Below are positions 2,199-52,442 of a stretch of DNA of 64,000 bases, piece by piece. Source of the stretch: a virus. Within the stretch, counting starts at the first letter, position 1. Each line of letters opens with the position of its first letter. Below the pieces are notes generated by a model that made no database searches, was not told the DNA's origin, and saw only the letters and a program-made list of their open reading frames with translations. The DNA lies in IMG/VR virus record IMGVR_UViG_3300021389_000015, positions 9,321-73,320 of that record; one strand, 5' to 3'. The translations under genes and the position numbers were made by a program.

Positions 2199-2645
2199 AT
2201 GATTGATTTGAAACAGATCCACAACATGTGGGCAGAAGACTGCACTATTAATAACACACAATTAGATGAAACATCTAAGCAAACCCCAGCATTACATTCA
2301 AAATATTTACAGTATTGGTCAACCGCCAAGCTTGAACTAAAACGTGCAGAGTTTGAGCAGAAAAAAATATTAAAAGATAAGTGGTTGTACTATAATGGAA
2401 AGATGGATCAAAAAACTTTAGATGATAAAGGTTGGAATCCAGATCCTTTTGATGGATTAAAAATATTAAAAGGTGAAATGGATTACTACTATGATAGTGA
2501 TCCGGAAATACAAAAGTCCGAAGAAAAAATTCAATACTGGAAAACCGTGAATGATACATTAACGGAGATAATAGATAATTTAAAATGGCGGCATCAAACT
2601 ATATCGAACATAATCAAATGGAAACAATTCGAGTCAGGAAATTAA
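2199..2645 (+). CDS. uvsY: recombination mediator UvsY
   Basis: LHSKYL, KWLYYNGK, WRHQTISNIIKW motifs; lies before uvsW. Confidence 0.88.
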   Translation: MIDLKQIHNMWAEDCTINNTQLDETSKQTPALHSKYLQYWSTAKLELKRAEFEQKKILKDKWLYYNGKMDQKTLDDKGWNPDPFDGLKILKGEMDYYYDSDPEIQKSEEKIQYWKTVNDTLTEIIDNLKWRHQTISNIIKWKQFESGN

Positions 2646-4732: not shown

Positions 4733-5317
4733 ATGGCACGCAGAAAAAGCATCCACTATGTCAATAACGCGCAGTTTTCACAAGCGGTAGTTGACTATGT
4801 TGGACACCTCGACCAATGTAAAAAAGAAGAAATTTCTTTACCAAAAGTTCCAGACTACATAGCACAATGTTTCTTGAGAATAGCAGAAGGTCTTTCTCAT
4901 AAAGCAAACTTTATAAGATACACTTATAGAGAAGAAATGGTTATGGATGCAGTGGAAAATTGTTTGAAAGCTATATCAAATTATAATCTTGAAGCAGCAA
5001 CAAGAACAGGTAAACCAAATGCATTTGCATACTTTACACAAATAACTTGGTTTGCTTTCTTAAGAAGAATAACAAAAGAAAAGAAGCAACAAGAAATTAA
5101 AATAAAATATCTTACAAAATCTGGCATTGACAGTTTTATTGATACCGGTGATGAACAACAGGCAGTATCTGTTGCAACACACTTTGTTGATACACTACGT
5201 GATAGAATACAAAGAGTAAGAAGTACAGATGTAGAAATAAAAGAAATGGTCAAAAAAGAAAAGAAGAAGAGAAAAAGCAAAATTGCTGATTCAGATTTAA
5301 GTGAGTTTATGTTATGA
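4733..5317 (+). CDS. gp55: late transcription sigma factor
   Basis: HYVNN, IAEGLSHKANFIRYTYREEMVMDAVENC, NAFAYFTQI. Confidence 0.95.
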   Translation: MARRKSIHYVNNAQFSQAVVDYVGHLDQCKKEEISLPKVPDYIAQCFLRIAEGLSHKANFIRYTYREEMVMDAVENCLKAISNYNLEAATRTGKPNAFAYFTQITWFAFLRRITKEKKQQEIKIKYLTKSGIDSFIDTGDEQQAVSVATHFVDTLRDRIQRVRSTDVEIKEMVKKEKKKRKSKIADSDLSEFML

Positions 5318-6372
5318 AGATAGCGGTACTTAATGATACACATACCGGCATACGAAACTCATCAGAAATATTTTTAAATAATGCAGAAGATTTTTATAAC
5401 AACGTATTCTTTCCAGAATGTGATAAACAAGGTATAACACAAATACTGCACCTTGGCGATTTTTACGATCATCGAAAGTTTGTTAACTTTAAAGCATTGA
5501 ATCATAATCGTAGAGTGTTTCTTGATCAATTACGTAAACGCGGCATGACTATGGATATTATTCCTGGCAATCATGATACGTTTTATAAGAACACAAATGA
5601 ACTTAATTCATTAAAAGAATGTTTAGGTCACTACATGAATGAAGTCCATATTGTTATGGAACCTACAGTAATGCAGTATGATTCTTTAAGCATAGGTTTA
5701 GTTCCTTGGATTTGTCAAGATAATTACACACAATGTATGAACTTCATAAAAGAATGTAAAGCTGATTGGTTAGGTGCTCATCTTGAATTAAATGGTTTTG
5801 AAATGATGAGAGGTTTAAAAAATACTCATGGCATGGATCCTAAATTGTTTTCAAGATTTGAAATGGTATTAAGTGGACATTATCATTGTTCATCACAAAA
5901 AGATAATATCTGGTATCTTGGATCACAAATGGAATTCTTTTGGTCTGATGCACATGATCCTAAGTATTTTCATATAATTGATACTGAAACAAGAAAAATA
6001 GAGAAGATAAGAAATAATCACACTTTATTTGAAAAAGTCCTTTACAATGACGAAGAAATAGATTATAATAGTTATAATAAAGATTTAACTAATAAATTTG
6101 TAAAAGTTGTAGTTATGAATAAAACTGATCCTTTTACATTTGATAGATTTATTGACAATATTCAGAATCAAAAAATTTATGAATTAAAGATAGCAGAAAA
6201 CTTTAATGAATTTATTGGTGCTAATGTTGATGATGATAGTATGAACTTCGAAGATACTGCAGAAATAGTCGATACCTACATTGATGCGGTTGATACCGAT
6301 TTGGATAAGAACAAAATAAAAGTTGAAATGAGACAACTAATGACTGAGGCACAAGCACTAGAGATAGCATGA
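5314..6372 (+). CDS. gp47: recombination endonuclease subunit (Mre11/SbcD-like)
   Basis: Metallophosphoesterase motifs DTH, HLGD, GNHD, SGHYH. Confidence 0.95.
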   Translation: MKIAVLNDTHTGIRNSSEIFLNNAEDFYNNVFFPECDKQGITQILHLGDFYDHRKFVNFKALNHNRRVFLDQLRKRGMTMDIIPGNHDTFYKNTNELNSLKECLGHYMNEVHIVMEPTVMQYDSLSIGLVPWICQDNYTQCMNFIKECKADWLGAHLELNGFEMMRGLKNTHGMDPKLFSRFEMVLSGHYHCSSQKDNIWYLGSQMEFFWSDAHDPKYFHIIDTETRKIEKIRNNHTLFEKVLYNDEEIDYNSYNKDLTNKFVKVVVMNKTDPFTFDRFIDNIQNQKIYELKIAENFNEFIGANVDDDSMNFEDTAEIVDTYIDAVDTDLDKNKIKVEMRQLMTEAQALEIA

Positions 6373-8066
6373 TTATATTTAAACTTCTTCGTTATAAAAA
6401 CTTTTTATCTTCTGGTAATACATTTACAGAAGTAGACTTTACAAGAACTAAATCTACTTTAGTAGTAGGTCATAATGGTGCTGGTAAATCTACAATGTTA
6501 GATGCATTGTCTTTTGGTTTATTCGGTAAGCCTCATAGAAGAATAAGTAAAGCTCAGCTCGTTAATTCAATTAATCAAAAACAAGCATTAGTTGAAGTAG
6601 AGTTTACTATAGGCCGATCTAATTTCAAGTTAATAAGAGGCATCAAACCTAATATATTTGAAATATGGAAAGACCATAAGATGATTAACCAATCATCACA
6701 CGCTATGGAATACCAGAAGATCTTAGAACAAAACATCTTAAAGCTTAATCATAAAAGTTTTCATCAAGTTGTTGTGTTAGGTTCTTCCTCCTTCATACCT
6801 TTTATGCAACTTAATGCGGGTCATCGTAGAGATGTTATTGAAGATCTTCTGGACATTAATATTTTTTCTAAGATGAATGTTATATTAAAAGAAAAAAACA
6901 GCACCTTAAAAGATAAAGCATCAACTATAGTTAATAACATTGAGTTGTGTAAAACTAAAATAGAACAACACTCTAAATACATTCGTGACATTGCTGCATT
7001 GACTACAGAAAATAAAAAGAAATATGAAAAACAAATTCAAAGCGCAGATTTAAAAATACAAAAGTTACAAGAAAATAATAACATGTTAACTAATGAGCTT
7101 GATGCCTTTGGTGATATAGACTTAACATCTTTACAGAATAAAAAGAATGATGTTATAACATATAGAGCTGAACAAAAACAAGAATTGAAAACAGTTGCAA
7201 AGCGAGGTCTGTTCTTGCAAAGTAATGATGAGTGTCCTACATGCGAACAACCTATCCAGAATAAAGATAAATTAGTATTTGATACTAAAAATCAAGCTTA
7301 TCAGATCGAGTCAACTCTTAAATTAATTGAAAGTAGTTATATCGAAGTTGAAGCAGAAATGCAAAAATTGCAAGAAACTATTGCAATAGTAAATGGAAAA
7401 ACTAGTACTATTAATTCTAATAACAGAGAAATACAATCTTTAAATCAAAGCAATAACGATTTAAGATCATACCTAAATGAAGAAGTCAGTACAGACTTAA
7501 ATGTTGCTAGAAAAGAACTAGAAGATATTACTAATGACAAAGAAGACTTGATAGAAGAGAAACTTAAAGTAACTGAACAAATTAATTACAACGGCGTTAT
7601 AGCAGAAATGCTTAGAGACACTGGAATTAAAACTAAAATAATAAAGCAATACTTACCAGCAATTAATAAACTTGTTAACCAACACTTGCAAGTTCTAGAT
7701 TTCTTTGTTTCTTTTGACTTAGATGAGAGTTTTCAAGAAACTATAAGATCAAGATTTAGAGATGATTTTACATATGAATCTTTTAGTGAAGGTGAAAAAC
7801 AAAGAATTGATTTATCGTTGTTATTTACATGGCGTCAAATAGCAAAGATGAAAAACTCGGTTTCAACTAACTTGTTAATATTAGATGAAACCTTTGACTC
7901 ATCATTAGATCATGATGGTGTTGAAAATTTATTAAAAATACTAAACACACTTGGAGAAGATACCAATACATTTATTATATCACATAAAGGAGATATACTC
8001 GATGGAAAGTTTGATTCCAAGATTGAATTTGTAAAAGAAAGAAATTTCTCTAAAATGAAAATTTAA
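6369..8066 (+). CDS. gp46: recombination ATPase subunit (Rad50/SbcC-like)
   Basis: GHNGAGKST, CPTC zinc hook, FSEGEK signature, LILDE. Confidence 0.96.
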   Translation: MIIFKLLRYKNFLSSGNTFTEVDFTRTKSTLVVGHNGAGKSTMLDALSFGLFGKPHRRISKAQLVNSINQKQALVEVEFTIGRSNFKLIRGIKPNIFEIWKDHKMINQSSHAMEYQKILEQNILKLNHKSFHQVVVLGSSSFIPFMQLNAGHRRDVIEDLLDINIFSKMNVILKEKNSTLKDKASTIVNNIELCKTKIEQHSKYIRDIAALTTENKKKYEKQIQSADLKIQKLQENNNMLTNELDAFGDIDLTSLQNKKNDVITYRAEQKQELKTVAKRGLFLQSNDECPTCEQPIQNKDKLVFDTKNQAYQIESTLKLIESSYIEVEAEMQKLQETIAIVNGKTSTINSNNREIQSLNQSNNDLRSYLNEEVSTDLNVARKELEDITNDKEDLIEEKLKVTEQINYNGVIAEMLRDTGIKTKIIKQYLPAINKLVNQHLQVLDFFVSFDLDESFQETIRSRFRDDFTYESFSEGEKQRIDLSLLFTWRQIAKMKNSVSTNLLILDETFDSSLDHDGVENLLKILNTLGEDTNTFIISHKGDILDGKFDSKIEFVKERNFSKMKI

Positions 8067-9090: not shown

Positions 9091-10029
9091 ATGTCTAATG
9101 AATACCTATGGGTTGAAAAGTATAGGCCACAAAAAATTGCCGATACTGTTCTACCTACTAAACTAAAAGAAACCTTTCAAAAAATAATTGATGGTGGTGA
9201 ACTACCAAATATGTTATTTACCGGTACTGCCGGCTTAGGTAAAACTACTGTTGCTCGAGCACTATGTAATGAACTTAACTGTGATTACATTTTGATCAAT
9301 GGTTCTGAAGAAGGCAACATTGATACACTCAGAACTAAAATAAAACAATTTGCTTCCTCGGTATCTCTATCGAGCGACTTTAAAGTTGTCATACTTGATG
9401 AAGCAGATTATTTAAATCCCCAATCAACTCAACCAGCTCTTCGTGGTTTCATTGAAGAGTTTTCTAATAATTGTAGATTTATTCTTACTTGTAATTTCAA
9501 GAATAGAATTATTGAACCATTACATTCAAGATGTGGTGTATATGAATTCAATACTTCTAAAAAAGATCTTGCACCAATAGCTTCTAACTTCATGAAAAGA
9601 TGTCAATCAATTCTTGAAGGTGAAGGTATAAGCTACACACAAATGGCTGTGGCAGATTTGATTATGAAGTTTGCACCAGATTGGCGTAGAGTACTTAATG
9701 AATTGCAAAGATACTCTGTAAATGGAAACATAGATGCTGGTATTATCAATATTGTAAGTGATAAAAACTATGATGATCTTTTCTCTTATTTGAAAAATAA
9801 AGATTTCAAAAAGATGAGATCTTGGGTGGTCAACAATATAGATACAGATGCTAGTGCAATTTTTAGAGCCATGTACGATAAGATGGCTGAAAAGGTTGCT
9901 CCTCAATCTATCCCGCAGTTGGTTTTAATCTTAGGTGATTATCAATATAAAAATGCTTTTGTTGCTGATCACGAACTTAATGTAGTAGCATGTTTAACGG
10001 AGGTAATGTCTGATGTACAGTTCAATTAA
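9091..10029 (+). CDS. gp44: clamp loader large subunit
   Basis: LWVEKYRP, GTAGLGKTT, ILDEAD, SRC. Confidence 0.96.
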   Translation: MSNEYLWVEKYRPQKIADTVLPTKLKETFQKIIDGGELPNMLFTGTAGLGKTTVARALCNELNCDYILINGSEEGNIDTLRTKIKQFASSVSLSSDFKVVILDEADYLNPQSTQPALRGFIEEFSNNCRFILTCNFKNRIIEPLHSRCGVYEFNTSKKDLAPIASNFMKRCQSILEGEGISYTQMAVADLIMKFAPDWRRVLNELQRYSVNGNIDAGIINIVSDKNYDDLFSYLKNKDFKKMRSWVVNNIDTDASAIFRAMYDKMAEKVAPQSIPQLVLILGDYQYKNAFVADHELNVVACLTEVMSDVQFN

Positions 10030-16783: not shown

Positions 16784-19270
16784 ATGTCATTTTACACTAA
16801 CGTATTACGCTATAAAAACTATATACTTCACCGGGGTTATCATAACAACGGTGAAAGGTTTATGCGTAAAGAATATTTCCAGCCAACACTATTTGTTTCT
16901 TCTAAGAAGAAAGAAGGCTGGACTGGATTCGATGGTCAGGATGTTGCACCATTACAATTTGAAAGTATGTTTGAAGCTAATCAATGGTTAAAGCAAAACA
17001 TTGATGTATCTGGTAGAAACATATATGGTAATAAAAAATTTACACAACAATTCGTTACCGAAAAATATCCACGTGATATTGAATTTAAACGTGAGTTTAT
17101 TAATGTAGGTACTATTGATATTGAAACAGATTATGATACTGGCTTTCCACATCCTAACGAGGCAAGTCAAAAGATACTTGCTATAACCTATAAGTCAAGT
17201 AAGTTCTCTACGTACCATGTATGGGGTTACGGTGAATTTGATACTACTAAAGCTCTTATTACTGATGTCAAATACATTAGATGTAATAGTGAAGAAGAAC
17301 TTCTCAGTAAGTTTTTAGAATTCTGGTCACATCCTGATATTACTCCAGATGTTATTACTGGTTGGAATACAAGGTTTTTTGATATACCTTACATCGTAAA
17401 TCGTATGGCAAAAGTTTTAGGCATACAAGAAATTCAAAAGCTATCACCATGGAATATGCAACTCGAACATAGAAGAATTACAAAACGTGGTAGTGAAAAT
17501 GATGTATATGAAATACCCGGCATACAAACTCTTGATTACATGGAATTGTTTCAAAAGTTTGGTTATACATATGGTCCACAAGAATCATATGCATTAAATC
17601 ATATTGCTTATGTTGTACTTGGTGAAAAGAAACTTTCTTATGAAGAATCAGGTTCACTTAAAAATCTATATAAAGATGATCACCAAAAGTACATTGACTA
17701 TAACATGAAAGATGTTCAATTAGTTGACAGGCTCGAAGAAAAGATGGCTCTTATTACATTGGCCTTAACCATAGCTTACAAAGGTGGTGTTAATTACCAA
17801 GATACTTTTGGTGTTACTGCTATATGGGAATCAATCATATATCGTAAATTAAACTTAAGTAAAGTAGTTGTACCTTTAAGTAACAATGAAAAACCATATA
17901 GGTCTTTTGCTGGCGGTTATGTTAAAGAACCACAAGTTGGTAGACACGATTGGATAGTATCTTTTGATTTAAATTCATTATATCCAAACTTAATTGTGCA
18001 ATACAATATGTCACCAGAAACTTTAACCGACAATACTCATATGAATGATGTTGGTTATTATCTTAGCGGTCAAAGCGTTGATAGTGAATATTCAGTTGCA
18101 GCAAATGGTTCTTCTTATCGTAAAGACATTGATGGTGTATTACCACAAATCATTGAAGAATATTATGATGAACGTGTGTCTGTAAAGAAAATGCAAATTG
18201 CTTCTCAAAAAGAAATACAAAACGGTTACACTACACAACTCGATAAAGAAATAGTTACACTTGAAAATAAACAGTTGGCTATAAAAATTCTACTTAATAG
18301 TCTTTATGGTGCATTAGGCAACAAACACTTTCATTACTTTGATATTAGACTTGCTGAAGGTGTAACTTTATCCGGTCAGCTTGCAATTCAATGGGCAGAA
18401 AAAGCAATGAATGCTGCAATGAATAAATTACTTAACACTGAAAAAGATTATGTTGTAGCAATTGATACGGATTCTTTATATGTTAACTTTGGTCCATTAG
18501 TTAAAGAACTATCTCCAGCAAATCCAGTTTCTTTCTTAGATAAAATTTGTAATGAACACTTTGAACCTGTATTACAAAAAGCATATGAAAAGTTATTTCG
18601 AAATATGAATGCTCATAAGAATAGAATGGTCATGGCTAGAGAAGGTATATCTGATAGTGGCATATGGACTGCAAAGAAAAGATACATTCTAAATGTTCAT
18701 AATAATGAAGGCATTCAATATAAAGAACCTAAACTTAAAATCATGGGTATTGAAGCTATTAAGTCATCAACACCTGAAGTTGTACGTGATAAATTTAAGA
18801 AAGCATTCAACCTAATTATATCTGGTACTGAAGCTGAAACACAAAGATTTATTCAAGATTTTCGTAATGAATTTAAAACACTTTCACCTGAACAGGTTGC
18901 TTTTCCAAGAAGAGTATCTAACATTACTGATTGGTATGATCACAAAACTATTTACAAGAAAAGTTGTCCTATACATGTTCGTGGTTCACTACTCTTCAAT
19001 AAGTATTTAAAGTCTAATAAATTACAAAATAAATATGAATTGATCACTAACGGTAATAGAATAAAATTCTGTTATCTTAAGTTACCTAATTCGATCAAAG
19101 AAAATGTTATTGCTTTTCAAGATGCATTACCTAAAGAATTAAAATTACATAACTATGTAGACTATGATTTGCAATTTAATAAAACATTTATAGAACCACT
19201 TAATTTAATATTACATTCTATCGGCTGGTCTGCCGAAGAACAAACTACCTTGGAGGATTTTTTCGTATGA
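16784..19270 (+). CDS. gp43: DNA polymerase, family B
   Basis: DIET exonuclease motif, SFDLNSLYP, KILLNSLYGALG, DTDS, KKRY; C-terminal TLEDFFV clamp motif. Confidence 0.98.
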   Translation: MSFYTNVLRYKNYILHRGYHNNGERFMRKEYFQPTLFVSSKKKEGWTGFDGQDVAPLQFESMFEANQWLKQNIDVSGRNIYGNKKFTQQFVTEKYPRDIEFKREFINVGTIDIETDYDTGFPHPNEASQKILAITYKSSKFSTYHVWGYGEFDTTKALITDVKYIRCNSEEELLSKFLEFWSHPDITPDVITGWNTRFFDIPYIVNRMAKVLGIQEIQKLSPWNMQLEHRRITKRGSENDVYEIPGIQTLDYMELFQKFGYTYGPQESYALNHIAYVVLGEKKLSYEESGSLKNLYKDDHQKYIDYNMKDVQLVDRLEEKMALITLALTIAYKGGVNYQDTFGVTAIWESIIYRKLNLSKVVVPLSNNEKPYRSFAGGYVKEPQVGRHDWIVSFDLNSLYPNLIVQYNMSPETLTDNTHMNDVGYYLSGQSVDSEYSVAANGSSYRKDIDGVLPQIIEEYYDERVSVKKMQIASQKEIQNGYTTQLDKEIVTLENKQLAIKILLNSLYGALGNKHFHYFDIRLAEGVTLSGQLAIQWAEKAMNAAMNKLLNTEKDYVVAIDTDSLYVNFGPLVKELSPANPVSFLDKICNEHFEPVLQKAYEKLFRNMNAHKNRMVMAREGISDSGIWTAKKRYILNVHNNEGIQYKEPKLKIMGIEAIKSSTPEVVRDKFKKAFNLIISGTEAETQRFIQDFRNEFKTLSPEQVAFPRRVSNITDWYDHKTIYKKSCPIHVRGSLLFNKYLKSNKLQNKYELITNGNRIKFCYLKLPNSIKENVIAFQDALPKELKLHNYVDYDLQFNKTFIEPLNLILHSIGWSAEEQTTLEDFFV

Positions 19271-46230: not shown

Positions 46231-46305
46231 AACGTTCACCCGTAAAGGGCGGAAGTAAGCAATCGCTGAAGGAACGCACTCTAACTATTAACTAGGGAGG
46301 GTGGC
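46231..46305 (+). ncRNA. glutamine riboswitch (glnA motif) with expression platform
   Basis: P1 CGTTC/GAACG, P2 ACCC-GTAAA-GGGC, E-loop GGAAGTA..GAAG flanking P3 AGC-AATC-GCT; CACTCT can pair with AGGGTG over the SD. Confidence 0.8.
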
Positions 46306-46308
46306 AAA

Positions 46309-46410
46309 ATGACTTACAGACCATTTCAATGGAAGATGTTTGTTAAGGCTCGTAAACGTGCTTTAGTTCATAAGATACTGAACTATCGTCTATTATTAAA
46401 AGCAGCTTAA
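46309..46410 (+). CDS. riboswitch-controlled 33-aa basic peptide MTYRPFQWKMFVKARKRALVHKILNYRLLLKAA
   Basis: GGGAGG SD, ATG 46309, TAA 46408-46410. Confidence 0.7.
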   Translation: MTYRPFQWKMFVKARKRALVHKILNYRLLLKAA

Positions 46411-46625
46411 TAAACTTTAGTATTCTTACCGATGCGCTTAGGTACGCATATCGCCGTATATGATAGGAACTTAGGCGCATCTTCTTGTGCGACTCTATTT
46501 GGAACACCAGGTTGATTGTTTAATCTTTCAGCAAAGTACTTACATCGATCAATGTCAGCAAAATACATATCTTGACTCTCTACACGAGAACCTAAATATA
46601 CCATTAATAAAAATGCGTGTATCAT
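46407..46625 (-). CDS. hypothetical protein
   Basis: 72-aa ORF, last gene of the minus-strand late operon. Confidence 0.6.
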   Translation of the reverse strand: MIHAFLLMVYLGSRVESQDMYFADIDRCKYFAERLNNQPGVPNRVAQEDAPKFLSYTAICVPKRIGKNTKVY

Positions 46626-46936
46626 CTTCGTTTCTTCTTAGTTTCTGTTTTAACTATCGAGGCTTGAGCTTCTCTTCTGAGTTTTTCAAGAGCATCTTCT
46701 GATTTATCAAATTTTGGCTTCTCTCTTGTAGAGAGTTGAGCCCAAAACTTATCTTTCACTGGAGCATTATTCTTACTATTATTTAACATTATTGTGATGG
46801 CTTTATAACCATCACCCATGAACACTAACTTATCATTTTTATATAATTTAGACTTAGACGATATCGTCATATCTAGTATCATATTCTCATGTTTGAATAT
46901 CATCTTTACCACATTCGCATTTCTGACACACGTCAT
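46622..46936 (-). CDS. hypothetical protein (true start probably downstream of 46936)
   Basis: ORF in the minus-strand operon. Confidence 0.55.
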   Translation of the reverse strand: MTCVRNANVVKMIFKHENMILDMTISSKSKLYKNDKLVFMGDGYKAITIMLNNSKNNAPVKDKFWAQLSTREKPKFDKSEDALEKLRREAQASIVKTETKKKRR

Positions 46937-47030
46937 TCATACACTCGGGACATCCACTTGAATAACAGTGACATCGATGTCCGCAATATCTACACTTTCT
47001 CTCTTCACCTACATTTGATTCACCTAACAT
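46887..47030 (-). CDS. 47-aa Cys-rich metallothionein/zinc-binding-like microprotein
   Basis: AGGAG SD; MLGESNVGEERKCRYCGHRCHCYSSGCPECMNDVCQKCECGKDDIQT (9 Cys, 2 His). Confidence 0.65.
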   Translation of the reverse strand: MLGESNVGEERKCRYCGHRCHCYSSGCPECMNDVCQKCECGKDDIQT

Positions 47031-47038
47031 ATCAGCTC

Positions 47039-47368
47039 CTACTTTTTACCTATTGAATTTAAACTATCCATCACATTATCGATGTTTGGTTCTTTACTAT
47101 TTGGATTGTATACACACTTGAATTGTTTTGGACAATTGTTGTCAAACATCAACTCATATGTTTTATTACCACCCTGATATATACACGCCTGTTCACCACT
47201 TCTTGATTGTATGATCTTCTTTAATCTACATGTGGTGTACTTCTTTTCAACGATAGTACCACGTTGTATCTTCTGTTGACGAGTATAGTCTTTCTTTGTA
47301 CCGACCGTCTTAGCACCCGCAAGTGCCGTAGATACTATAACGCAAAAGATAAGAAAAAACTTTATCAT
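47039..47368 (-). CDS. secreted Cys-containing protein
   Basis: Signal-peptide-like N-terminus, four Cys. Confidence 0.6.
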   Translation of the reverse strand: MIKFFLIFCVIVSTALAGAKTVGTKKDYTRQQKIQRGTIVEKKYTTCRLKKIIQSRSGEQACIYQGGNKTYELMFDNNCPKQFKCVYNPNSKEPNIDNVMDSLNSIGKK

Positions 47369-47844
47369 TGATTACTATAATAGATCGCACCAAAGACTGC
47401 CGCAACTCCACCGACCGCCGCACCCATAACCATGAGTACCATCTTAATGTCGGCCCATGTTTCGGCATCGGCTTTACGCTTATCGATACGCGCTTGTTTC
47501 TCGGCTTCTTTCTGTTCTTGTATTCGCCTTGCGCGTTCATCAACAATTCCTTGCCATGTACCCGGTCCAAATCGTAGATTAATGAGTGTTGAAATTTCTT
47601 GTAGTTGTTCCGCCGCAAGTCTTGCGTCAATCGTTTCTCTTGCGATATGTGCCGTGTCAAACTGTTCTTTGACTCCTAAACCACGCTTATTCGACTTCTT
47701 ATTGACTTCGTCTTTACCACGAAATAATGCGTCAATGTGACTACCTAACTCTCCGATGTCTTTACAGGTATCAATGTTAGACTTAATGAAATCTACACTT
47801 GACTTCACCAATGCGATACCCGCTAGTATTTCTGCTACTGGCAT
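47365..47844 (-). CDS. coiled-coil protein with C-terminal TM helix
   Basis: MPVAEILAGIALVK, C-terminal hydrophobic helix, GAGGAG SD. Confidence 0.65.
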   Translation of the reverse strand: MPVAEILAGIALVKSSVDFIKSNIDTCKDIGELGSHIDALFRGKDEVNKKSNKRGLGVKEQFDTAHIARETIDARLAAEQLQEISTLINLRFGPGTWQGIVDERARRIQEQKEAEKQARIDKRKADAETWADIKMVLMVMGAAVGGVAAVFGAIYYSNQ

Positions 47845-47874: not shown

Positions 47875-47883
47875 AAATAATCC

Positions 47884-47912
47884 TTTACAAACGGCGAATT
47901 CTGTGGTATAAT
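47884..47912 (+). promoter_or_regulatory. early promoter driving the tmRNA
   Basis: CCTTTACA-N17-TATAAT with TGG. Confidence 0.82.
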
Positions 47913-47918
47913 ATATAC

Positions 47919-48180
47919 TATATAACGATGAAACAAAGTGAAAAGTTCACTGGACTCGGGGGCAGTACCCGACAGCTCCACCAAAAATACTATTATCGAG
48001 TATTTCTGATGGGGCTGAAATAGGATCGACAGGTACAATAACGATGTGGAGTTATCCGGATGTAAGCTCGGTTAATGCGAACAATATACTAAATGCAAAC
48101 GATAATTTTGCACCTCAAGAGTTAGCGCAAGCTGCTTAATTCTTATGCGCCCGGTGAGAGCGTGGAAACAGAATCTCACC
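47919..48180 (+). ncRNA. ssrA: two-piece (circularly permuted) tmRNA, alphaproteobacterial type
   Basis: Acceptor piece ends CGGGGGCAGTACCCGACAGCTCCACCA (47983); 27-nt spacer; coding piece starts GGGGCTGAAATAGGATCGAC (48011); G3:U70 pair; tag ANDNFAPQELAQAA* at 48095-48139. Outer ends approximate. Confidence 0.92.
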
Positions 48181-48203
48181 ATTAACACACACAGGAGGAC
48201 AAT

Positions 48204-48437
48204 ATGTCTAAAAACGCATACGAAATAAGACTCGAAACTTTAAGAATGGCCAAAGAGATGGCCGATACACAGTTCTGTTTACAACAGGATATTATGTATA
48301 GAATGATCGATCAGGCGCAAGAAAAACGCATGGACATCATGGACGCGGTCAATGATCACTCACCACTGATGTATCAGCCGGTTGATCTCATTGAAACCGC
48401 AAATAAGCTATATGCTTATGTAGGCGAAAAACAATAG
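48204..48437 (+). CDS. conserved phage hypothetical protein
   Basis: MSKNAYEIRLETL.MAKEM...A.KLY.YV; AGGAGG SD. Confidence 0.7.
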   Translation: MSKNAYEIRLETLRMAKEMADTQFCLQQDIMYRMIDQAQEKRMDIMDAVNDHSPLMYQPVDLIETANKLYAYVGEKQ

Positions 48438-48446
48438 GATAAAATT

Positions 48447-48659
48447 ATGGCAGAAGTAGAAAAAAAGAACGGTATCGTTATTAAAGATGAACACAACGAG
48501 TTTGAACTGGCACTCAGATTCCTCGGTAATGAACTGATCGCGATCAAGATGGCGGCGACAAACTTCAGTGGTAAACTGATACTGTGGAGTATTCTACTTC
48601 TGCTCTTTAGTTTCATGATGATCGAAGTCTTCGAAGTCAACACGTGGATAGGAGGATAA
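48447..48659 (+). CDS. small membrane protein
   Basis: FEL.LRFLGNE plus a C-terminal TM segment. Confidence 0.6.
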   Translation: MAEVEKKNGIVIKDEHNEFELALRFLGNELIAIKMAATNFSGKLILWSILLLLFSFMMIEVFEVNTWIGG

Positions 48660-48660
48660 C

Positions 48661-48819
48661 ATGTGGGGAAGACTCATTGAATACACGGGTGGTAATGAAT
48701 ACAAACCACCTCAGTCAAAAAGGAGAAAGATTATGACACCCAACCCGCACTACATCAATATGATGATTAATATCGGTATCTTTGGTATGTTAATATACGT
48801 AGCTGTGCAAGTATCTTAA
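48661..48819 (+). CDS. small membrane protein
   Basis: 52-aa ORF MWGRLIEYTGG with AGGAGG SD and C-terminal hydrophobic segment. Confidence 0.5.
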   Translation: MWGRLIEYTGGNEYKPPQSKRRKIMTPNPHYINMMINIGIFGMLIYVAVQVS

Positions 48820-49430
48820 TGAGTAGCATAGTAGACGACAGATTAAACGATTTAAAAGATGACGTTATATATCATTTTAAAATCAATCACGATAAAGATA
48901 AGTTATTAAAAGAATCTAGTTCCGTTAGATATAATGCAATAAATGAAAAGAATCTTGAGAGATATAAAAGACTAGGATTTATTGAAAAAGATACTATCAG
49001 CTATGATGTTGAGGATAAAGATTGGTTTAATAATCAAAGGGATTGGAAGATATCTTCAAGTTTAGATAATGATTCTAACAGTGAATCAGAACGTTTGCAT
49101 GCGATTTTTAAAAGGTTATTACAGGTAGATAATTTAGGTCCTAGATTTCTTACTCAAAAAGAAGGAGCTGATGTTCACTACCACATTGATGGCGAAACGT
49201 TATGTGCTATTAATTTTTTAGTAAAAGGAGAACGGACTCCAATATCTTTCAAGGATGTAGGACATTTTTATTATGACGTAGCATTAATTAACACTAATCA
49301 CGCTCATTCCGTACCAAAACAAATCGACGAGGATAGAGTGTTATTTAAACTAAGAATAAAACAAATGACTTTTAAAGAAGCTAAGGAGAAACTAGTTGCT
49401 AACGAGAACTTTCGAGAGTTCTGGAACTAA
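48819..49430 (+). CDS. 2OG-Fe(II) oxygenase/cupin-like protein
   Basis: HID...CAIN...HSV...RVLF (HxD...H...R). Confidence 0.65.
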   Translation: MSSIVDDRLNDLKDDVIYHFKINHDKDKLLKESSSVRYNAINEKNLERYKRLGFIEKDTISYDVEDKDWFNNQRDWKISSSLDNDSNSESERLHAIFKRLLQVDNLGPRFLTQKEGADVHYHIDGETLCAINFLVKGERTPISFKDVGHFYYDVALINTNHAHSVPKQIDEDRVLFKLRIKQMTFKEAKEKLVANENFREFWN

Positions 49431-50136
49431 ATTAAGATTATCGCTATTATTAAATTTAATAGCGTCTTTAATTTACGTATCAGTGTATGGAATAACAATC
49501 ACTAATCTTGTGACAATATTAGTGATGTACTTTTTATATATGTGCATAGGAATGGTGTGTACTTTTCACCGATTTTACTCTCATAAGTCATTTGAGTTTA
49601 GAAATACTTTTACAAAATACTTATGTACGACTCTTGGTTTACTGTCTGGCTCTGGTTCAGTGTTTGGCTGGTGTGGAGTTCATAACAAACATCACGATAA
49701 GCACGACACTCCAGAAGATCCACACGACTCTAAAAAAGGATTTTTAAGTCTTATAACTTTAAATTACGACTATAATATCGAACTTAGATACGTAAAATAT
49801 CTTTTCAAAGACAAGTTTCTTATGATGACTCATAAGTACTACTACTTAATGATAATAGCGTACGTGGCAACGATAGCGATATTATTTGGACCACAAGGAG
49901 TTGTATTTGGATTTTGTATACCTTCGGCAATTAACGTCATGGTTCAAGGCCTCACTACTTTCTTCTTACACAAAGACGGAGCTCCACGATACGTGAATTG
50001 GTTAAACTGGTTAGTATTTGGAGATGGTAACCATGACGAGCATCATAAAGATGTCAAACAGTATAAGTTAAAACATTATGATATATCAGGATGGGTGATA
50101 CATTGGATATTACGAAAGCAACTCACAAAAATATAG
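49396..50136 (+). CDS. membrane fatty-acid (delta-9-type) desaturase
   Basis: His boxes HRFYSH, HNKHH, HDEHH; DPH; TM helices. Confidence 0.88.
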   Translation: MLTRTFESSGTKLRLSLLLNLIASLIYVSVYGITITNLVTILVMYFLYMCIGMVCTFHRFYSHKSFEFRNTFTKYLCTTLGLLSGSGSVFGWCGVHNKHHDKHDTPEDPHDSKKGFLSLITLNYDYNIELRYVKYLFKDKFLMMTHKYYYLMIIAYVATIAILFGPQGVVFGFCIPSAINVMVQGLTTFFLHKDGAPRYVNWLNWLVFGDGNHDEHHKDVKQYKLKHYDISGWVIHWILRKQLTKI

Positions 50137-50660
50137 TACGTGATAAACAAGAAATATCAAGAGTATTTTCACTGGCGTACGAAGATAACATTCACCACGT
50201 TAATCGAAATAATTATAAAACTGTAAGATTAGATGGTTACATCAGATTTGACGTACTTTACTTTGAAGATGATGTGATATCTTTTTCAGGATTGTGGACT
50301 CACGATAAATGGAATGATTGCGCACGAGCTGCTGATAGATATTACATCTTTAAAAAATACAGATGTAAGACTCTAGTATCAAGACCAAGTATGTTTGCGG
50401 CATCTCAATTATTCATACCAAAGCAATTTAAGACAGCGATTGAATGGGGACTCCATCCGTTCGTATCGATACAAAATATAAAGAAGAAAAAAGTTATTGA
50501 CATTACTCGAGAACGTCTTAAAAATAATCACGATCTCGATTGTGTAGTCCTTGATGAATTAAAATATACTTGTGTAGATAACAGTGACTCTATTAATTGT
50601 TGGCAAAACATACTTACGTTGAGATCTTGTAAAGATCAAGTCTCTTCTTCGCTTTCATAA
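50091..50660 (+). CDS. hypothetical protein, possible GNAT-like fold
   Basis: ISFSG...R...RYY....YR, CWQ pattern. Confidence 0.45.
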   Translation: MGDTLDITKATHKNIVRDKQEISRVFSLAYEDNIHHVNRNNYKTVRLDGYIRFDVLYFEDDVISFSGLWTHDKWNDCARAADRYYIFKKYRCKTLVSRPSMFAASQLFIPKQFKTAIEWGLHPFVSIQNIKKKKVIDITRERLKNNHDLDCVVLDELKYTCVDNSDSINCWQNILTLRSCKDQVSSSLS

Positions 50661-51108
50661 AATCAATATCAAATATAGACATCTTAAAAAGTTTTCTTGG
50701 TTCGGTGACAGCTTCTACTCGATGTTCTGTCTGAACGTCGATCAGTGAAAAAGAGTAAGAGTGTGATGTTACGGTGCCATCGCGTCGGAACCATATCGGG
50801 TCTTGATCCGTACTCAGTATCATGTTAATCGCGCACTTCGTACCTCTGTCAACATGCCACGGTACTTCACACTTATCTTTTAAGATATAATAACGAGGAT
50901 GACACTGTACGTCTAAAATTTTGCTCATTCGTCTGTTGATCTCGTTCGTGTAAGGTCCTACGTCTTTACATATCATCCAGTAGTCAAGGCTCTTACCACC
51001 TAAAGGATCAAAGTACGGTTCGTACGAAGCCTCGTCACATTCTTGTAATATTAAATCTTTATCGTACTCTATGCAGTTAATTTCTTGTATCATGTGGAAT
51101 ACATCCAA
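50614..51108 (-). CDS. 2OG-Fe(II) oxygenase/cupin-like protein
   Basis: PRYY, WHVD..TKCAIN, H.V, RKLFK; paralog-like to 48819. Confidence 0.65.
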   Translation of the reverse strand: MDVFHMIQEINCIEYDKDLILQECDEASYEPYFDPLGGKSLDYWMICKDVGPYTNEINRRMSKILDVQCHPRYYILKDKCEVPWHVDRGTKCAINMILSTDQDPIWFRRDGTVTSHSYSFSLIDVQTEHRVEAVTEPRKLFKMSIFDIDFMKAKKRLDLYKIST

Positions 51109-51517
51109 CGATATGAATTCGAGTCTCTGTAGAAGCGTTGACTGCCGTGTGTAACTTTGTGGTATCGATGACGTAAGGTCTTCCGATATCAGGACACCTG
51201 ACTACCTCGTCATCAACAACTAGGAAACACTTGTCGTTAGTCACCACGGGCACGTGTAGTCTCTTCGTAGGATCTTGATGATAAGTATAGCACGTCTTCG
51301 ATCTCATTCTCATGACTCGAGTCCTATAAAGGTTGTGATCATCTATAATGCTGTTCAGTACGGGTGTGTCAAAGATTTTTCTTACGAGTGCTGTGTCGTT
51401 ACGATTAACTCCACAGCCAAGAAACGGGTCTCCGCTCTCGTCACTTTGTAAACATATCTGATCCTCAAAGCGAGGTAGAGACATAATCTCTTCTATTATC
51501 TTTTTCGTATCATACAT
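51077..51517 (-). CDS. Asp/Asn beta-hydroxylase-like 2OG-Fe(II) oxygenase
   Basis: RTRVM, HQD...RLHVP..TN, DT...HTAVN...RIHIV. Confidence 0.75.
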   Translation of the reverse strand: MYDTKKIIEEIMSLPRFEDQICLQSDESGDPFLGCGVNRNDTALVRKIFDTPVLNSIIDDHNLYRTRVMRMRSKTCYTYHQDPTKRLHVPVVTNDKCFLVVDDEVVRCPDIGRPYVIDTTKLHTAVNASTETRIHIVGCIPHDTRN

Positions 51518-52442
51518 ATTCTTTCCTAGAACAAAGTAAACCTATACATCCACAAATGTCTCGTTCGCAACTTATACTATATTTAGGCAATATAAAATTA
51601 TCGACAAAAGACTTAAGATAAATGTTTGATTTTTTCGTAAAGTTTTGTCCACACGACATTGTTCCTATAAAACCTCTACTGTCTATCTGTATGAAGTCGT
51701 GATGAGCGTAACAACGATATCCAGTAAAAGTACCTCGTAAATTCTTCACGTGATGGAGTTGTAGATCAAAGATCTCTCCATCACAGTTTACTTTACAAGA
51801 TGGTTTCATGAGAGGTTGGTGTATGTTATCCTTGATGATCACCTCTTGTTCGAGCGAGTACTCTATCACTCTTCCGTTTTCTCTTAAAGTCTTAAGTTGA
51901 AAGTTAACATCACTAAATCTGTCTGATAGAGTACTATACGCGTCGATACACTCGTCAAATAACTTAGGATTTACCATCACATGTACTCGTAAACCGACAT
52001 CGTCCTTGATACACTCGATAACTTTGGCCATGTGTTCGAGATCCGTATATTCAGAATGATAAGACAACAATACGTGATCGATATATTGTAGGTTTTGCTT
52101 CCACCATCTTACAGTTCGACTTCCGTTCGATACAAAACCAATCTCACCAAAAGGTCTTAAGAAGTCCATCAACTGAACGATGTCGCGATACAGTGTTGGT
52201 TCACCTCCACCAAAGTTAAACACTATCCTTTGTTTACTTACAGCATCGATCTCTTTCAACAGATGATATACATTTCTTTTTAAGACATCGTCGAGTCTTG
52301 GAACTCTGTCGGTGCCGGTGTTGGCGTTAGGAAAACAGTAAGAGCAATTGAAGTTACAAGTGTTACCAAGTACCCAGTCTATTATCGTCAAGTCAGACAC
52401 GTCTCTGTCTATAGATAAGATTTTCTTACCGTCGAGTCTCAT
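51510..52442 (-). CDS. radical SAM protein with C-terminal Cys cluster (twitch/SPASM-like)
   Basis: CNFNCSYC, GGGEPT, SNG, SYH; C-terminal C...C...C....CGC. Confidence 0.9.
   Translation of the reverse strand: MRLDGKKILSIDRDVSDLTIIDWVLGNTCNFNCSYCFPNANTGTDRVPRLDDVLKRNVYHLLKEIDAVSKQRIVFNFGGGEPTLYRDIVQLMDFLRPFGEIGFVSNGSRTVRWWKQNLQYIDHVLLSYHSEYTDLEHMAKVIECIKDDVGLRVHVMVNPKLFDECIDAYSTLSDRFSDVNFQLKTLRENGRVIEYSLEQEVIIKDNIHQPLMKPSCKVNCDGEIFDLQLHHVKNLRGTFTGYRCYAHHDFIQIDSRGFIGTMSCGQNFTKKSNIYLKSFVDNFILPKYSISCERDICGCIGLLCSRKEYV

What the first reader, a model, noticed from the sequence alone, without database searches (positions are those of the whole stretch)
47884..48180. Phage-encoded two-piece (permuted) tmRNA under an early promoter
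Seen: the 3' acceptor half (...GGGGGCAGTACCCGACAGCTCCACCA) precedes the 5' half (GGGGCTGAAATAGGATCGAC), separated by a 27-nt hairpin-capable spacer. The acceptor stem has the G3:U70 alanine determinant. The tag is ANDNFAPQELAQAA*, and a promoter of the phage's own early family drives it. Established: permuted tmRNAs with ANDN...AA tags typify alphaproteobacteria. Inference: this points to the host class, and the phage supplies its own ribosome rescue or retunes tagging, perhaps to offset tRNA/mRNA-cleaving defences. The intact halves and phage-style promoter argue against an integration remnant.
Basis: partly seen in the sequence, partly recalled or inferred. Interest (0 to 1): 0.8.

Follow-up and report, generated by a model that had tools for sequence, protein, structure and literature searches.

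The report
Phage-borne two-piece tmRNA, already-known kind
A marine T4-like phage carries its own complete, split ribosome-rescue RNA (tmRNA) behind one of its early promoters; this kind of gene is already described in related ocean phages, and this copy stands out only by an unusual ending of its degradation tag.

Summary
Window 47880-48183 (+) matches Rfam alpha_tmRNA at 133.9 bits (gathering score 50) and tmRNA_permuted at 123.4 bits. The 3' acceptor half precedes the 5' half, separated by a 27-nt hairpin spacer. G3:U70, an encoded CCA and the tag ANDNFAPQELAQAA* are all present. The promoter TTTACA-N17-TATAAT belongs to a family of 16 exact copies, all on the + strand (0.07 expected by chance).

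The contig is a T4-like marine myophage fragment of 73 kb, estimated 41% complete. It holds no SmpB, no integrase and no tRNA genes.

Base-pair covariation across 29 related tmRNAs supports a working RNA. So does a tag frame that is nearly invariant (1 of 45 columns, a synonymous change). Three independent viral contigs have the same flanks, and a tree puts this gene with viral tmRNAs. All of this argues against a remnant or a chimera.

The kind is already published (Buchholz et al. 2022, phage Melnitz and pelagimyophages). That paper also shows that an alpha-type tmRNA does not fix the host class.

Three points are specific to this copy:
- It is the deepest branch of the viral tmRNA clade in the tree.
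- ARAGORN misses it.
- Its tag ends in QAA, where all comparators whose tag could be read have a hydrophobic residue or Ala three residues from the end.

The nearby glutamine riboswitch controls a 33-aa peptide gene, not the tmRNA.

The parts
47884..47912 (+). Sigma-70-type promoter: -35 TTTACA (47884-47889), 17-nt spacer with TGn (47904-47906), -10 TATAAT (47907-47912). The transcription start is inferred at about 47919-47921.
   Evidence: one of 16 exact TTTACA-N17-TATAAT sites, all on the + strand, 0.07 expected. The -10 box and the spacing are kept in L086-L088 while the spacer letters vary. 'Early' is inferred by analogy with T4-like phages.
47920..47983 (+). Acceptor piece, about 64 nt (5' end inferred): distal P2 strand 47922-47926, proximal P2 strand 47946-47952, T-arm 47956-47972 (loop GGCAGUA), 3' acceptor strand 47973-47979, discriminator A47980, encoded CCA 47981-47983.
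   Evidence: Rfam alignments. Covariation count on 29 sequences. The first T-stem pair is U-A, A-U or C-G in the four AQAA-type contigs.
47984..48010 (+). Intervening segment (27 nt) removed on maturation. It forms a 7-bp hairpin, 47985-47991 with 47999-48005.
   Evidence: fold, -3.2 kcal/mol. helix 5: 98.9% of cells paired, 6 of 7 pairs with changes on both sides. Lengths are 8-145 nt in relatives. It is almost wholly absent in L087 and L088. Removal itself is inferred from the Caulobacter two-piece tmRNA, as summarised in PMC9004378 section 8.
48011..48183 (+). Coding piece, about 173 nt (3' end inferred): 5' acceptor strand 48011-48017, P2 strands 48030-48035 and 48051-48055, helix P3 48056-48059 with 48068-48071, tag frame, and 3' hairpin.
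   Evidence: P3 shows a G-C to C-G swap in L025 (alignment).
48095..48139 (+). Tag reading frame: resume codon GCA (48095-48097), tag ANDNFAPQELAQAA, stop TAA (48137-48139). The unusual Gln codon CAA is at 48128-48130.
   Evidence: 1 of 45 columns varies among four contigs, and that change is synonymous. No difference at 48128-48130 in contigs of three public runs.
48153..48180 (+). 3'-terminal hairpin, GGUGAGA with UCUCACC, around a conserved GGAAACAGAA loop. No U-run follows it.
   Evidence: -13.6 kcal/mol. The AACAGAA block matches the Rfam alpha_tmRNA consensus. The stem is changed on both sides in L086 and L088. No terminator-like site is reported there.

Best explanation
This is a working, phage-owned ssrA gene for a two-piece (circularly permuted) alpha-type tmRNA. 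It is inherited within a virus-specific tmRNA lineage of marine T4-like myophages.

Proposed mechanism:
1. The host RNA polymerase with its main sigma factor starts at the TTTACA-N17-TGnTATAAT promoter, probably early in infection. It makes a precursor of about 265 nt. With no terminator, transcription probably runs on into the small genes downstream.
2. The 3' acceptor strand (47973-47979) pairs with the 5' strand (48011-48017). The spacer hairpin extends this stem.
3. Host RNase P cuts before G48011, and the spacer is trimmed back to the encoded CCA. This leaves an acceptor piece of about 64 nt and a coding piece of about 173 nt, held together by the acceptor stem and the P2 helices.
4. Host alanyl-tRNA synthetase charges it through G3:U70. 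Host SmpB and EF-Tu bring it to stalled ribosomes. Translation resumes at GCA 48095 and adds ANDNFAPQELAQAA.

The net effect is extra ribosome-rescue capacity while the phage shuts down and degrades host messages, together with tagging of truncated proteins.

Shown here: the gene's anatomy, its conservation and covariation, its promoter family, its viral context, and the absence of smpB on the contig. Inferred: timing, processing, charging, dependence on host SmpB, and the benefit to the phage.
For: - Model matches far above threshold, with full-length alignment.
- Covariation on 29 tmRNAs: 92.6% of cells paired against 83.0% in shuffles (0 of 500 shuffles as high) and 33-46% when the partners are slid. 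18 of 30 pairs change on both sides. G3:U70 is present in 29 of 29.
- Among four contigs with the same tag that differ by 8-16% over the tmRNA, the tag frame varies in 1 of 45 columns and that change is synonymous. The spacer varies in 25 of 31 columns and the 3' tail in 13 of 45.
- The promoter belongs to the phage's own family.
- Viral context: gp23, UvsW, gp46/47, gp44, gp43, primase, UvsX and gp41 lie in the same window.
- L087 and L088 are collinear with the window on both sides of the tmRNA.
- No SmpB in the contig or in the complete genomes of Melnitz and HTVC008M. The RNA must therefore use the host's SmpB.
- With the shared 23-mer columns removed, the window is sister to 31 viral or MAG-extra tmRNAs including Melnitz (support 99/90 and 97/93). 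29 of 30 cellular rows lie on the other side.
- Contigs from RNA libraries cover the tmRNA: X17 covers 47909-48154 and X15 covers 48125-48275.
Against: - No experiment shows processing, charging or tagging for any phage two-piece tmRNA. Searches found none, although subscription journals are not covered.
- The tag has Gln three residues from the end, where a review calls the last three residues LAA critical for ClpX (PMC9382460, passages). The tag may therefore not act as a normal degron.
- The middle P2 helix of the Rfam model is poorly paired in the window (mismatch marks). PK1 was only half verified.
- ARAGORN does not call the gene.
- RNA-library contigs cannot prove transcription, since DNA carry-over is possible, and they are 90-99% alike rather than identical.
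- The comparison set was picked by a shared 23-mer, which biases it towards relatives. The cellular rows are 30 unnamed BLAST-best loci out of 401 sampled genomes, and only 121 columns went into the tree.
- The contig is 41% complete, so smpB could lie on the missing part.
Confidence: 0.75

Rival explanations
1. Same machinery, different outcome. The QAA ending weakens direct ClpX recognition. This lineage's tmRNA would then rescue ribosomes while tagged proteins are degraded slowly, only with an adaptor such as SspB, or by another protease.
For: - Q at the third-last residue occurs in 0 of 34 other viral tags that could be read. It occurs in 0 of 5 MAG-extra tags and 0 of 23 cellular tags.
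- The variant is stable. The same tag is found in 3 further IMG/VR contigs and in contigs of 3 runs from 3 studies, with only a synonymous neighbouring change.
- A review calls LAA the critical last three residues and says the DAS ending minimises ClpX binding (PMC9382460).
Against: - The two terminal alanines and the N-terminal ANDNFAP part are kept.
- No degradation data exist for a QAA ending.
- ClpX specificity in the unknown host is unknown.
- A single-residue difference may be neutral.
Confidence: 0.2
2. Decoy. The phage RNA mainly titrates host SmpB or competes with host tmRNA, so that it blocks host trans-translation rather than performing it. This has been proposed for the tRNA-like-domain-only molecule of mycobacteriophage DS6A.
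For: - No phage smpB was found.
- PMC4131195 (passages) reports that a TLD-only molecule strongly inhibits tmRNA, perhaps by titrating SmpB.
- The tRNA-like domain is the part shared most strictly among viral copies. The 23-mer is identical in 36 contigs.
Against: A decoy needs no tag frame. Here the frame is the most conserved segment, with only a synonymous change, and the resume and stop codons are kept in all relatives whose tag could be read.
Confidence: 0.06
3. Passenger. The gene is a recently captured host ssrA, an integration-site remnant or an assembly chimera, with no role for the phage.
For: - tmRNA genes are common integration sites, and fragments of them occur in prophages (PMC9004378 section 8).
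- DNA contigs of run X4 break inside the tmRNA region.
Against: - Both halves are complete.
- No integrase is present.
- The promoter is of the phage family.
- Three independent contigs are collinear across both flanks.
- The exact 23-mer is found in 36 viral contigs but in only 6 of 185,579 species genomes. Four of those are candidate-phyla-radiation (CPR) standard tmRNAs. The other two lie in MAG bins, one of which holds 8 tmRNA matches.
- The window lies in a viral clade in the tree.
- It scores 133.9 bits, against 284.3 for a cellular alphaproteobacterial tmRNA.
Confidence: 0.03
4. Processing signal. The tRNA-like fold serves mainly as an RNase P / RNase E entry site that matures or stabilises the downstream mRNA.
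For: - No terminator lies between the tmRNA and the next genes.
- A ribosome-binding site AGGAGG and an ATG follow within 25 nt.
- A homologue of the 70-aa gene sits directly after the tmRNA in L016, L034, L086, L087 and L088.
Against: This does not explain the conserved tag frame, G3:U70 or the encoded CCA. The immediate neighbour differs between contigs: the 77-aa gene has no blastn match in L086-L088.
Confidence: 0.04

Closest known systems
ssrA of Methylophilales phage Melnitz and of pelagimyophages such as HTVC008M and Mosig (Buchholz et al. 2022, PMC9004378)
   Same: - A marine T4-like myophage of low G+C carrying a two-piece alpha-type tmRNA directly after a sigma-70-like promoter.
- No phage smpB.
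- A glutamine riboswitch in the same genome.
- The same viral tmRNA clade in the tree.
   Different: - Only about 62% (Melnitz) and 55% (HTVC008M) identity over the tmRNA. The window is the deepest branch of that clade.
- No detectable gp33 or gp59 downstream. PhoH and the PDDEXK nuclease, which flank the gene in Melnitz, lie 12 kb away here.
- The spacer is 27 nt against 145 nt in Melnitz.
- The tag ends AQAA, not ALAA.
- The riboswitch lies 1.6 kb upstream, separated by four genes on the opposite strand. In Melnitz it sits just downstream of the tmRNA.
Cellular two-piece tmRNA of Alphaproteobacteria (Rfam RF01849; Caulobacter type, Keiler, Shapiro and Williams 2000, as cited in PMC9004378)
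   Same: - Permuted gene order, G3:U70 and an encoded CCA.
- A GGCNGUA T-loop and an ANDN... tag start.
- A terminal hairpin with an AACAGAA loop.
- The ANDNFAP prefix is shared with 4 of 23 sampled cellular tags, all from genomes of 1.1-2.0 Mb.
   Different: - 133.9 bits against 284.3 for a cellular copy.
- Model positions of about 275-330 are missing.
- It lies on a phage, with no smpB nearby.
- It falls in a separate clade from 29 of 30 sampled cellular copies.
One-piece tmRNAs of mycobacteriophages (Bxz1 group) and Bacillus phage G, and the TLD-only gene of phage DS6A (Hudson, Lau and Williams 2014, PMC4131195)
   Same: A phage-encoded tmRNA homologue without a phage smpB reported.
   Different: Those are standard one-piece or TLD-only forms in phages of Gram-positive hosts. 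This one is permuted, alpha-type and has a full tag frame.

Membership tests
Two-piece (permuted) tmRNA, alpha type (Rfam RF01849 / RF04321) | Covariance-model score above the curated threshold over the full model | tested here: met
   133.9 bits against 50, model 1-355. 123.4 bits against 47, model 1-213.
Two-piece (permuted) tmRNA, alpha type (Rfam RF01849 / RF04321) | Permuted order: T-arm and 3' acceptor strand with CCA lie upstream of the 5' acceptor strand, joined by a removable segment | tested here: met
   CCA ends at 47983 and the 5' strand starts at 48011.
Two-piece (permuted) tmRNA, alpha type (Rfam RF01849 / RF04321) | 7-bp acceptor stem with G3:U70 (alanine identity) and discriminator A | tested here: met
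   G48013 pairs with U47977. The G:U pair is present in 29 of 29 aligned sequences, with compensatory changes at pairs 5 and 6.
Two-piece (permuted) tmRNA, alpha type (Rfam RF01849 / RF04321) | 5-bp T-stem with a 7-nt loop of the alpha form (GGCNGUA in the RF01849 consensus) | tested here: met
   47956-47972, loop GGCAGUA. 100% of cells paired, with 2 pairs changed on both sides.
Two-piece (permuted) tmRNA, alpha type (Rfam RF01849 / RF04321) | P2 helices that hold the two pieces together | tested here: met
   Proximal helix 86.1% paired and distal helix 70.1% paired, each with 4 pairs changed on both sides. The middle helix of the Rfam model is weak in the window.
Two-piece (permuted) tmRNA, alpha type (Rfam RF01849 / RF04321) | Pseudoknot PK1 upstream of the resume codon | tested here: inconclusive
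   Helix P3 (48056-48059 with 48068-48071) is present, with one compensatory swap in L025. The second stem was not identified.
Two-piece (permuted) tmRNA, alpha type (Rfam RF01849 / RF04321) | Tag frame that starts at an Ala resume codon and ends in a hydrophobic residue plus Ala-Ala | tested here: not met
   GCA resume codon, 14 codons and TAA are present. However, the third-last residue is Gln. Every other tag read here that ends in Ala-Ala has L, V, I, M, Y or A there. Two cellular tags end differently, AFA (L078) and ERA (L061), and none of the 62 has Gln there. The frame itself is met; only the canonical ending fails.
Two-piece (permuted) tmRNA, alpha type (Rfam RF01849 / RF04321) | Maturation into two RNAs, alanylation, SmpB-dependent trans-translation | not testable with these tools
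   RNA-library contigs cover the gene but cannot show ends or processing.
Melnitz-like / pelagimyophage ssrA locus (PMC9004378) | T4-like marine myophage with the gene directly after a sigma-70-type promoter | tested here: met
Melnitz-like / pelagimyophage ssrA locus (PMC9004378) | ssrA directly upstream of the late-transcription coactivator gp33 | tested here: not met
   BLASTP of the 77-aa downstream protein against Melnitz gp33 gives no alignment. tblastn of Melnitz and HTVC008M gp33 against the window gives no hit at E <= 1. No PHROG or Pfam hit.
Melnitz-like / pelagimyophage ssrA locus (PMC9004378) | Glutamine riboswitch adjoining ssrA | tested here: not met
   The riboswitch is at 46231-46280, 1.6 kb upstream, with four minus-strand frames in between.
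Integration-site remnant of a host ssrA | A partial tmRNA (one end only) beside an integrase, at a phage-host junction | tested here: not met
   Full model coverage. No PF00589 integrase match in the 73-kb record. Phage genes lie on both sides.

The most novel reading that the evidence does not exclude
Marine T4-like phages maintain an old, virus-specific tmRNA lineage whose tags evolve under the phage's own selection. This sub-lineage has replaced the critical hydrophobic residue of the degron with glutamine (…LAQAA). Ribosomes would then be rescued during infection while tagged proteins escape, or are only conditionally sent to, ClpXP proteolysis. That would be a phage retuning of host protein quality control.
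Probability: 0.2. Interest if true: 0.55.

Novelty: new member of a known kind. Interest (0 to 1): 0.3.

Why it matters
- It adds a deep-branching member to the phage two-piece tmRNAs. This supports the view that these genes are long-held viral genes and not recent host pick-ups. It also shows that an alpha-type tmRNA is a weak host marker.
- ARAGORN missed 5 of 36 Rfam-defined phage tmRNA spans here, including this one. HTVC008M's copy is not annotated in its GenBank record. Surveys based on ARAGORN therefore undercount such genes.
- The QAA tag is a natural variant at a residue that matters for ClpX, and it could be tested simply.
- The geometry here and in Melnitz argues that the glutamine riboswitch regulates a small peptide gene and not the tmRNA. 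This corrects a published reading.

Tried and rejected
- ARAGORN at default settings found nothing in the window or in the first 9.4 kb of the contig.
- The idea that the QAA ending explains the ARAGORN miss is not established. Four other spans were also missed. Three of them (L009, L021, L023) have ordinary tags, and L013's tag was not read.
- Megablast of 20 kb against the phage collection gave no match. Blastn of the locus found only short conserved cores.
- Synteny with gp33 and gp59 was not found.
- PHROGs and Pfam gave nothing for the eight frames next to the tmRNA. The protein atlas gave only viral 'hypothetical' clusters.
- The closest complete phage by DNA polymerase, C48C1 (52.9% identity), has no alpha_tmRNA. 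A literature search for C48C1 found nothing relevant.
- The host could not be named.
- Minimum-free-energy folding does not recover the T-arm, so it was not used as structural evidence beyond the z-score.
- Parts of the laid stretch have no cover in the RNA runs: the flanks in X17, and most of the tmRNA in X15 and X16. These gaps are not used as evidence.
- The phage-versus-cell HMM scores (106.5 against 76.2 bits) are biased by the shared 23-mer and are given only as a weak hint.

Full report
**What is there.** The window is bases 9321-73320 of a 73,320-base IMG/VR viral record that CheckV rates 41% complete. It has 30-39% G+C. It carries the core genes of a T4-like myophage:
- major head protein gp23 (200-1537)
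- UvsW-type helicase (2585-4093)
- gp47 and gp46 (5314-8066)
- clamp loader (9091-10029)
- gp43 DNA polymerase (16784-19270)
- primase, UvsX and gp41 helicase

The closest complete phage by gp43 is Phage C48C1 at 52.9% identity, followed by cyanomyophages at about 47%. This is therefore a distinct marine lineage of the Kyanoviridae type.

- Rfam's alpha_tmRNA model matches 47880-48183 (+) at 133.9 bits (threshold 50, E 2.3e-36, model 1-355). The newer tmRNA_permuted model matches 47921-48139 at 123.4 bits.
- Reading the sequence gives a T-arm at 47956-47972 with loop GGCAGUA, which fits the alpha consensus GGCNGUA. The 3' acceptor strand is 47973-47979, the discriminator is A47980 and the encoded CCA is 47981-47983.
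- The spacer is 27 nt (47984-48010) and folds into a 7-bp hairpin.
- The 5' acceptor strand GGGGCUG is 48011-48017, so G48013 faces U47977 (G3:U70).
- The tag frame 48095-48139 reads ANDNFAPQELAQAA*.
- The precursor folds better than all 200 shuffles, z = -3.38.
- The promoter TTTACA-N17-TATAAT (47884-47912, with TGn before the -10 box) is one of 16 exact copies in the window. All are on the + strand, against 0.07 expected by chance.
At 90% thresholds it sees a permuted tmRNA but picks a wrong tag.

**Is it a working gene of the phage?** Five lines of evidence say yes.

(1) *Covariation.* I aligned the tRNA-like domain of 29 distinct tmRNAs: the window, 25 IMG/VR contigs, Melnitz, HTVC008M and one cellular copy (alignment A1). 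I then counted a structure taken from the Rfam alignment of the window.
- 92.6% of cells pair, against 83.0% in shuffles (0 of 500 as high) and 33-46% when partners are slid by 1-3 columns.
- 18 of 30 pairs change on both sides.
- The G:U pair is kept in 29 of 29.
- The structure was derived from one of these sequences, which favours it over the slid versions. The size of the gap and the double changes are nevertheless clear.

(2) *A selected tag.* A scan for the tag's coding letters found three more IMG/VR contigs, L086-L088. They are 84-92% identical to the window over the tmRNA. Variable columns by segment:

| Segment | Variable columns |
|---|---|
| Tag frame | 1 of 45 (synonymous GCT to GCC) |
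| Spacer | 25 of 31 |
| 3' tail | 13 of 45 |
| Promoter | 11 of 29 |

In these four contigs the first T-stem pair is U-A, A-U or C-G. The 3' hairpin is changed on both strands around a constant GGAAACAGAA loop.

(3) *Not a chimera or remnant.*
- L087 and L088 are collinear with the window on both sides of the gene.
- There is no integrase in the record.
- Both halves are complete.

(4) *A viral lineage.*
- The 23 letters of the T-loop to CCA occur exactly in 36 IMG/VR contigs. Rfam called an alpha-type tmRNA on nearly all of them.
- Among representative genomes of 185,579 species, the 23 letters occur in only 6. Four of these are Saccharibacteria or Parcubacteria MAGs with standard one-piece tmRNAs. 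The other two are alpha-type copies in MAG bins.
- One of those bins holds 8 alpha_tmRNA matches. One scores 284.3 bits and is presumably the cell's own. Six score 51-114 bits, above the 50-bit gathering score, and one scores 30.6 bits, below it. That bin therefore contains phage contigs.
- In a tree of 65 tRNA-like domains with the 23 shared columns removed (121 columns), the window is sister to a group of 31 (support 97/93). That group is 25 viral rows including Melnitz plus 6 MAG-extra rows. The clade joining it to the window has support 99/90.
- 29 of 30 cellular rows lie on the other side. The tree has few columns, and the cellular rows are the 30 best BLAST loci from 401 unnamed alphaproteobacterial genomes. 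It shows separation, not a donor.

(5) *Occurrence and RNA.*
- The stretch occurs in marine or seawater runs of 14 studies.
- Contigs from RNA libraries cover the tmRNA. X17 covers 47909-48154 in pieces at depths 12.6-60.5. X15 covers 48125-48275 at depth 3.
- This fits expression but does not prove it. These are contigs, 90-99% alike, and DNA carry-over cannot be excluded.

**How it most likely works.**
- No SmpB gene was found in the record, nor in the complete genomes of Melnitz and HTVC008M. The RNA must work with the host's SmpB, alanyl-tRNA synthetase, RNase P and EF-Tu.
- The sigma-70-type promoter implies transcription by unmodified host polymerase, which by analogy with T4 means early.
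- No terminator-like site follows the 3' hairpin, and a ribosome-binding site and ATG follow at 48193-48206. The tmRNA is therefore probably cut out of a longer transcript.
- The spacer stem is kept by compensatory changes in most relatives (helix 5). However, it is almost wholly absent in L087 and L088, and its length ranges from 8 to 145 nt. It helps but is not required.
- I rate a genuine trans-translation function at about 0.75. The alternatives are a retuned-tag version, an SmpB decoy, a passenger gene and a processing signal. They are listed with their evidence in the rival explanations.

**Comparison with what is known.** Phage tmRNAs are established.
- Hudson, Lau and Williams 2014 list mycobacteriophage and Bacillus phage G copies (PMC4131195, passages).
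- The 2025 tmRNA database counts 79 unique bacteriophage sequences (PMC11915505, passages).
- Buchholz et al. 2022 (PMC9004378; passages and all of section 8) describe this very kind. It is a two-piece, alpha-type ssrA directly after an early promoter in the marine T4-like phage Melnitz. It is shared with pelagimyophages and present in 17 of 47 related contigs. They also report 53 two-piece calls among 18,146 phage genomes.
- They further show that Melnitz infects OM43, which is not an alphaproteobacterium.
- The window shares the tag prefix ANDNFAP with 4 of 23 sampled cellular tags, from genomes of 1.1-2.0 Mb. This is a hint of streamlined marine hosts, nothing more.

**What differs here.**
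- *Divergence.* The window's tmRNA is at most 67.5% identical to the 35 other spans and branches deepest in the viral clade.
- *Neighbourhood.* The downstream 77-aa protein is not similar to Melnitz gp33, and no gp33 or gp59 is detectable in the window. PhoH and the PDDEXK nuclease, which lie just upstream in Melnitz and HTVC008M, are 12 kb away here. The recurrent neighbour is instead a 70-aa membrane-type protein (48447-48659). Its homologues follow the tmRNA in L016, L034, L086, L087 and L088.
- *Tag ending.* The tag ends AQAA.
  - All 31 tags that ARAGORN called on the other spans end in A[L/V/I/M]AA. So do three more read by pattern, in L009, L021 and L023. One, L013, was not determined.
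  - Of the 28 ARAGORN tags from the bacterial loci, 5 are MAG-extra and 23 cellular. None has Q at that place.
  - The Gln codon is unchanged in contigs of three runs from three studies, dated 2014, 2020 and 2022. It is also unchanged in L086-L088, so it is not an assembly error.
  - A review calls LAA the critical last three residues and notes that a DAS ending minimises ClpX binding (PMC9382460, passages). What QAA does is unknown.
- *ARAGORN.* It missed 5 of the 36 Rfam-defined spans, which were not de-duplicated. HTVC008M's copy is unannotated in its record.

**The riboswitch.** Buchholz et al. write that the tmRNA is 'controlled by' a glutamine riboswitch.
- In Melnitz the riboswitch (L038 2856-2904) lies just after the tmRNA (2431-2848). 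It is followed by a ribosome-binding site and a 32-aa frame on the same strand. The record instead annotates a minus-strand CDS there.
- In the window the riboswitch (46231-46280, 56.4 bits) lies 1.6 kb upstream of the tmRNA. It is followed by GGGAGGG and a 33-aa basic frame (46309-46410). Four minus-strand frames then separate it from the tmRNA.
- The peptide is 67-73% identical in L087 and L088. It aligns with the Melnitz peptide better than all but 19 of 2000 shuffles.
- The simplest reading is one module, riboswitch plus small peptide gene, that is independent of the tmRNA.

**Verdict.** The gene is a phage-owned, almost certainly functional, two-piece tmRNA. The kind is already known, and this is a new, deep-branching member with an unusual tag ending. 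Interest is modest (0.3). The boldest reading not excluded is that the QAA tag retunes the fate of tagged proteins (probability about 0.2).

Noticed in passing
window 46231-46410 (+); L038 2856-3025: A glutamine riboswitch (RF01739, 56.4 bits) is followed by a ribosome-binding site and a 33-aa basic peptide frame (46309-46410). The peptide is conserved in L087 and L088 (67-73% identity) and weakly similar to a 32-aa frame after the Melnitz riboswitch, which the record does not annotate. The riboswitch probably regulates this peptide and not the tmRNA. Glutamine riboswitches in cyanobacteria control small glutamine-synthetase inhibitors (from recall), so a similar role is conceivable.
   Followed up: partly
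L040, L041, L043, L044 (genome contigs): Three Saccharibacteria MAGs and one Parcubacteria MAG have standard one-piece tmRNAs (RF00023, 73-93 bits). Their last 23 letters, from the T-loop to CCA, are identical to those of the marine phage two-piece tmRNAs. Whether this is convergence or shared descent of the T-arm is unexplained.
   Followed up: no
G001 (bin that holds L045): L046-L053: One bacterial MAG bin holds 8 alpha_tmRNA matches. One scores 284 bits, six score 51-114 bits (above the gathering score) and one scores 30.6 bits (below it). Six of the seven extra copies fall inside the starred viral clade in the tree, and L052 lies just outside it. The bin probably contains several phage contigs.
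   Followed up: partly
window 46407-47844 (-): A cassette of four minus-strand frames (72, 104, 109 and 159 aa) lies between the riboswitch module and the tmRNA. One frame has a signal-peptide-like start and one a C-terminal membrane segment. It has no Pfam or PHROG match and is partly conserved in L087 and L088.
   Followed up: partly
window 48819-52442: Downstream of the tmRNA lie genes of the auxiliary-metabolism type. These are a fatty-acid-desaturase-like protein (49396-50136, PF00487, 45 bits) and a radical SAM protein on the minus strand (51510-52442).
   Followed up: no
L002-L037, about 30-70 bases upstream of each tmRNA: Most other viral tmRNAs have TTGACA at -35 and a -10 region reading GTATAAATA, which contains the T4-type late-promoter word TATAAATA. 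They may therefore be read both early and late. The window has TATAAT instead.
   Followed up: no
L039 1922-2233 (HTVC008M, record 145103-145414): Pelagibacter phage HTVC008M has an alpha_tmRNA match (83.8 bits) with tag ANFNEYALAA. It is not annotated in the GenBank record.
   Followed up: partly
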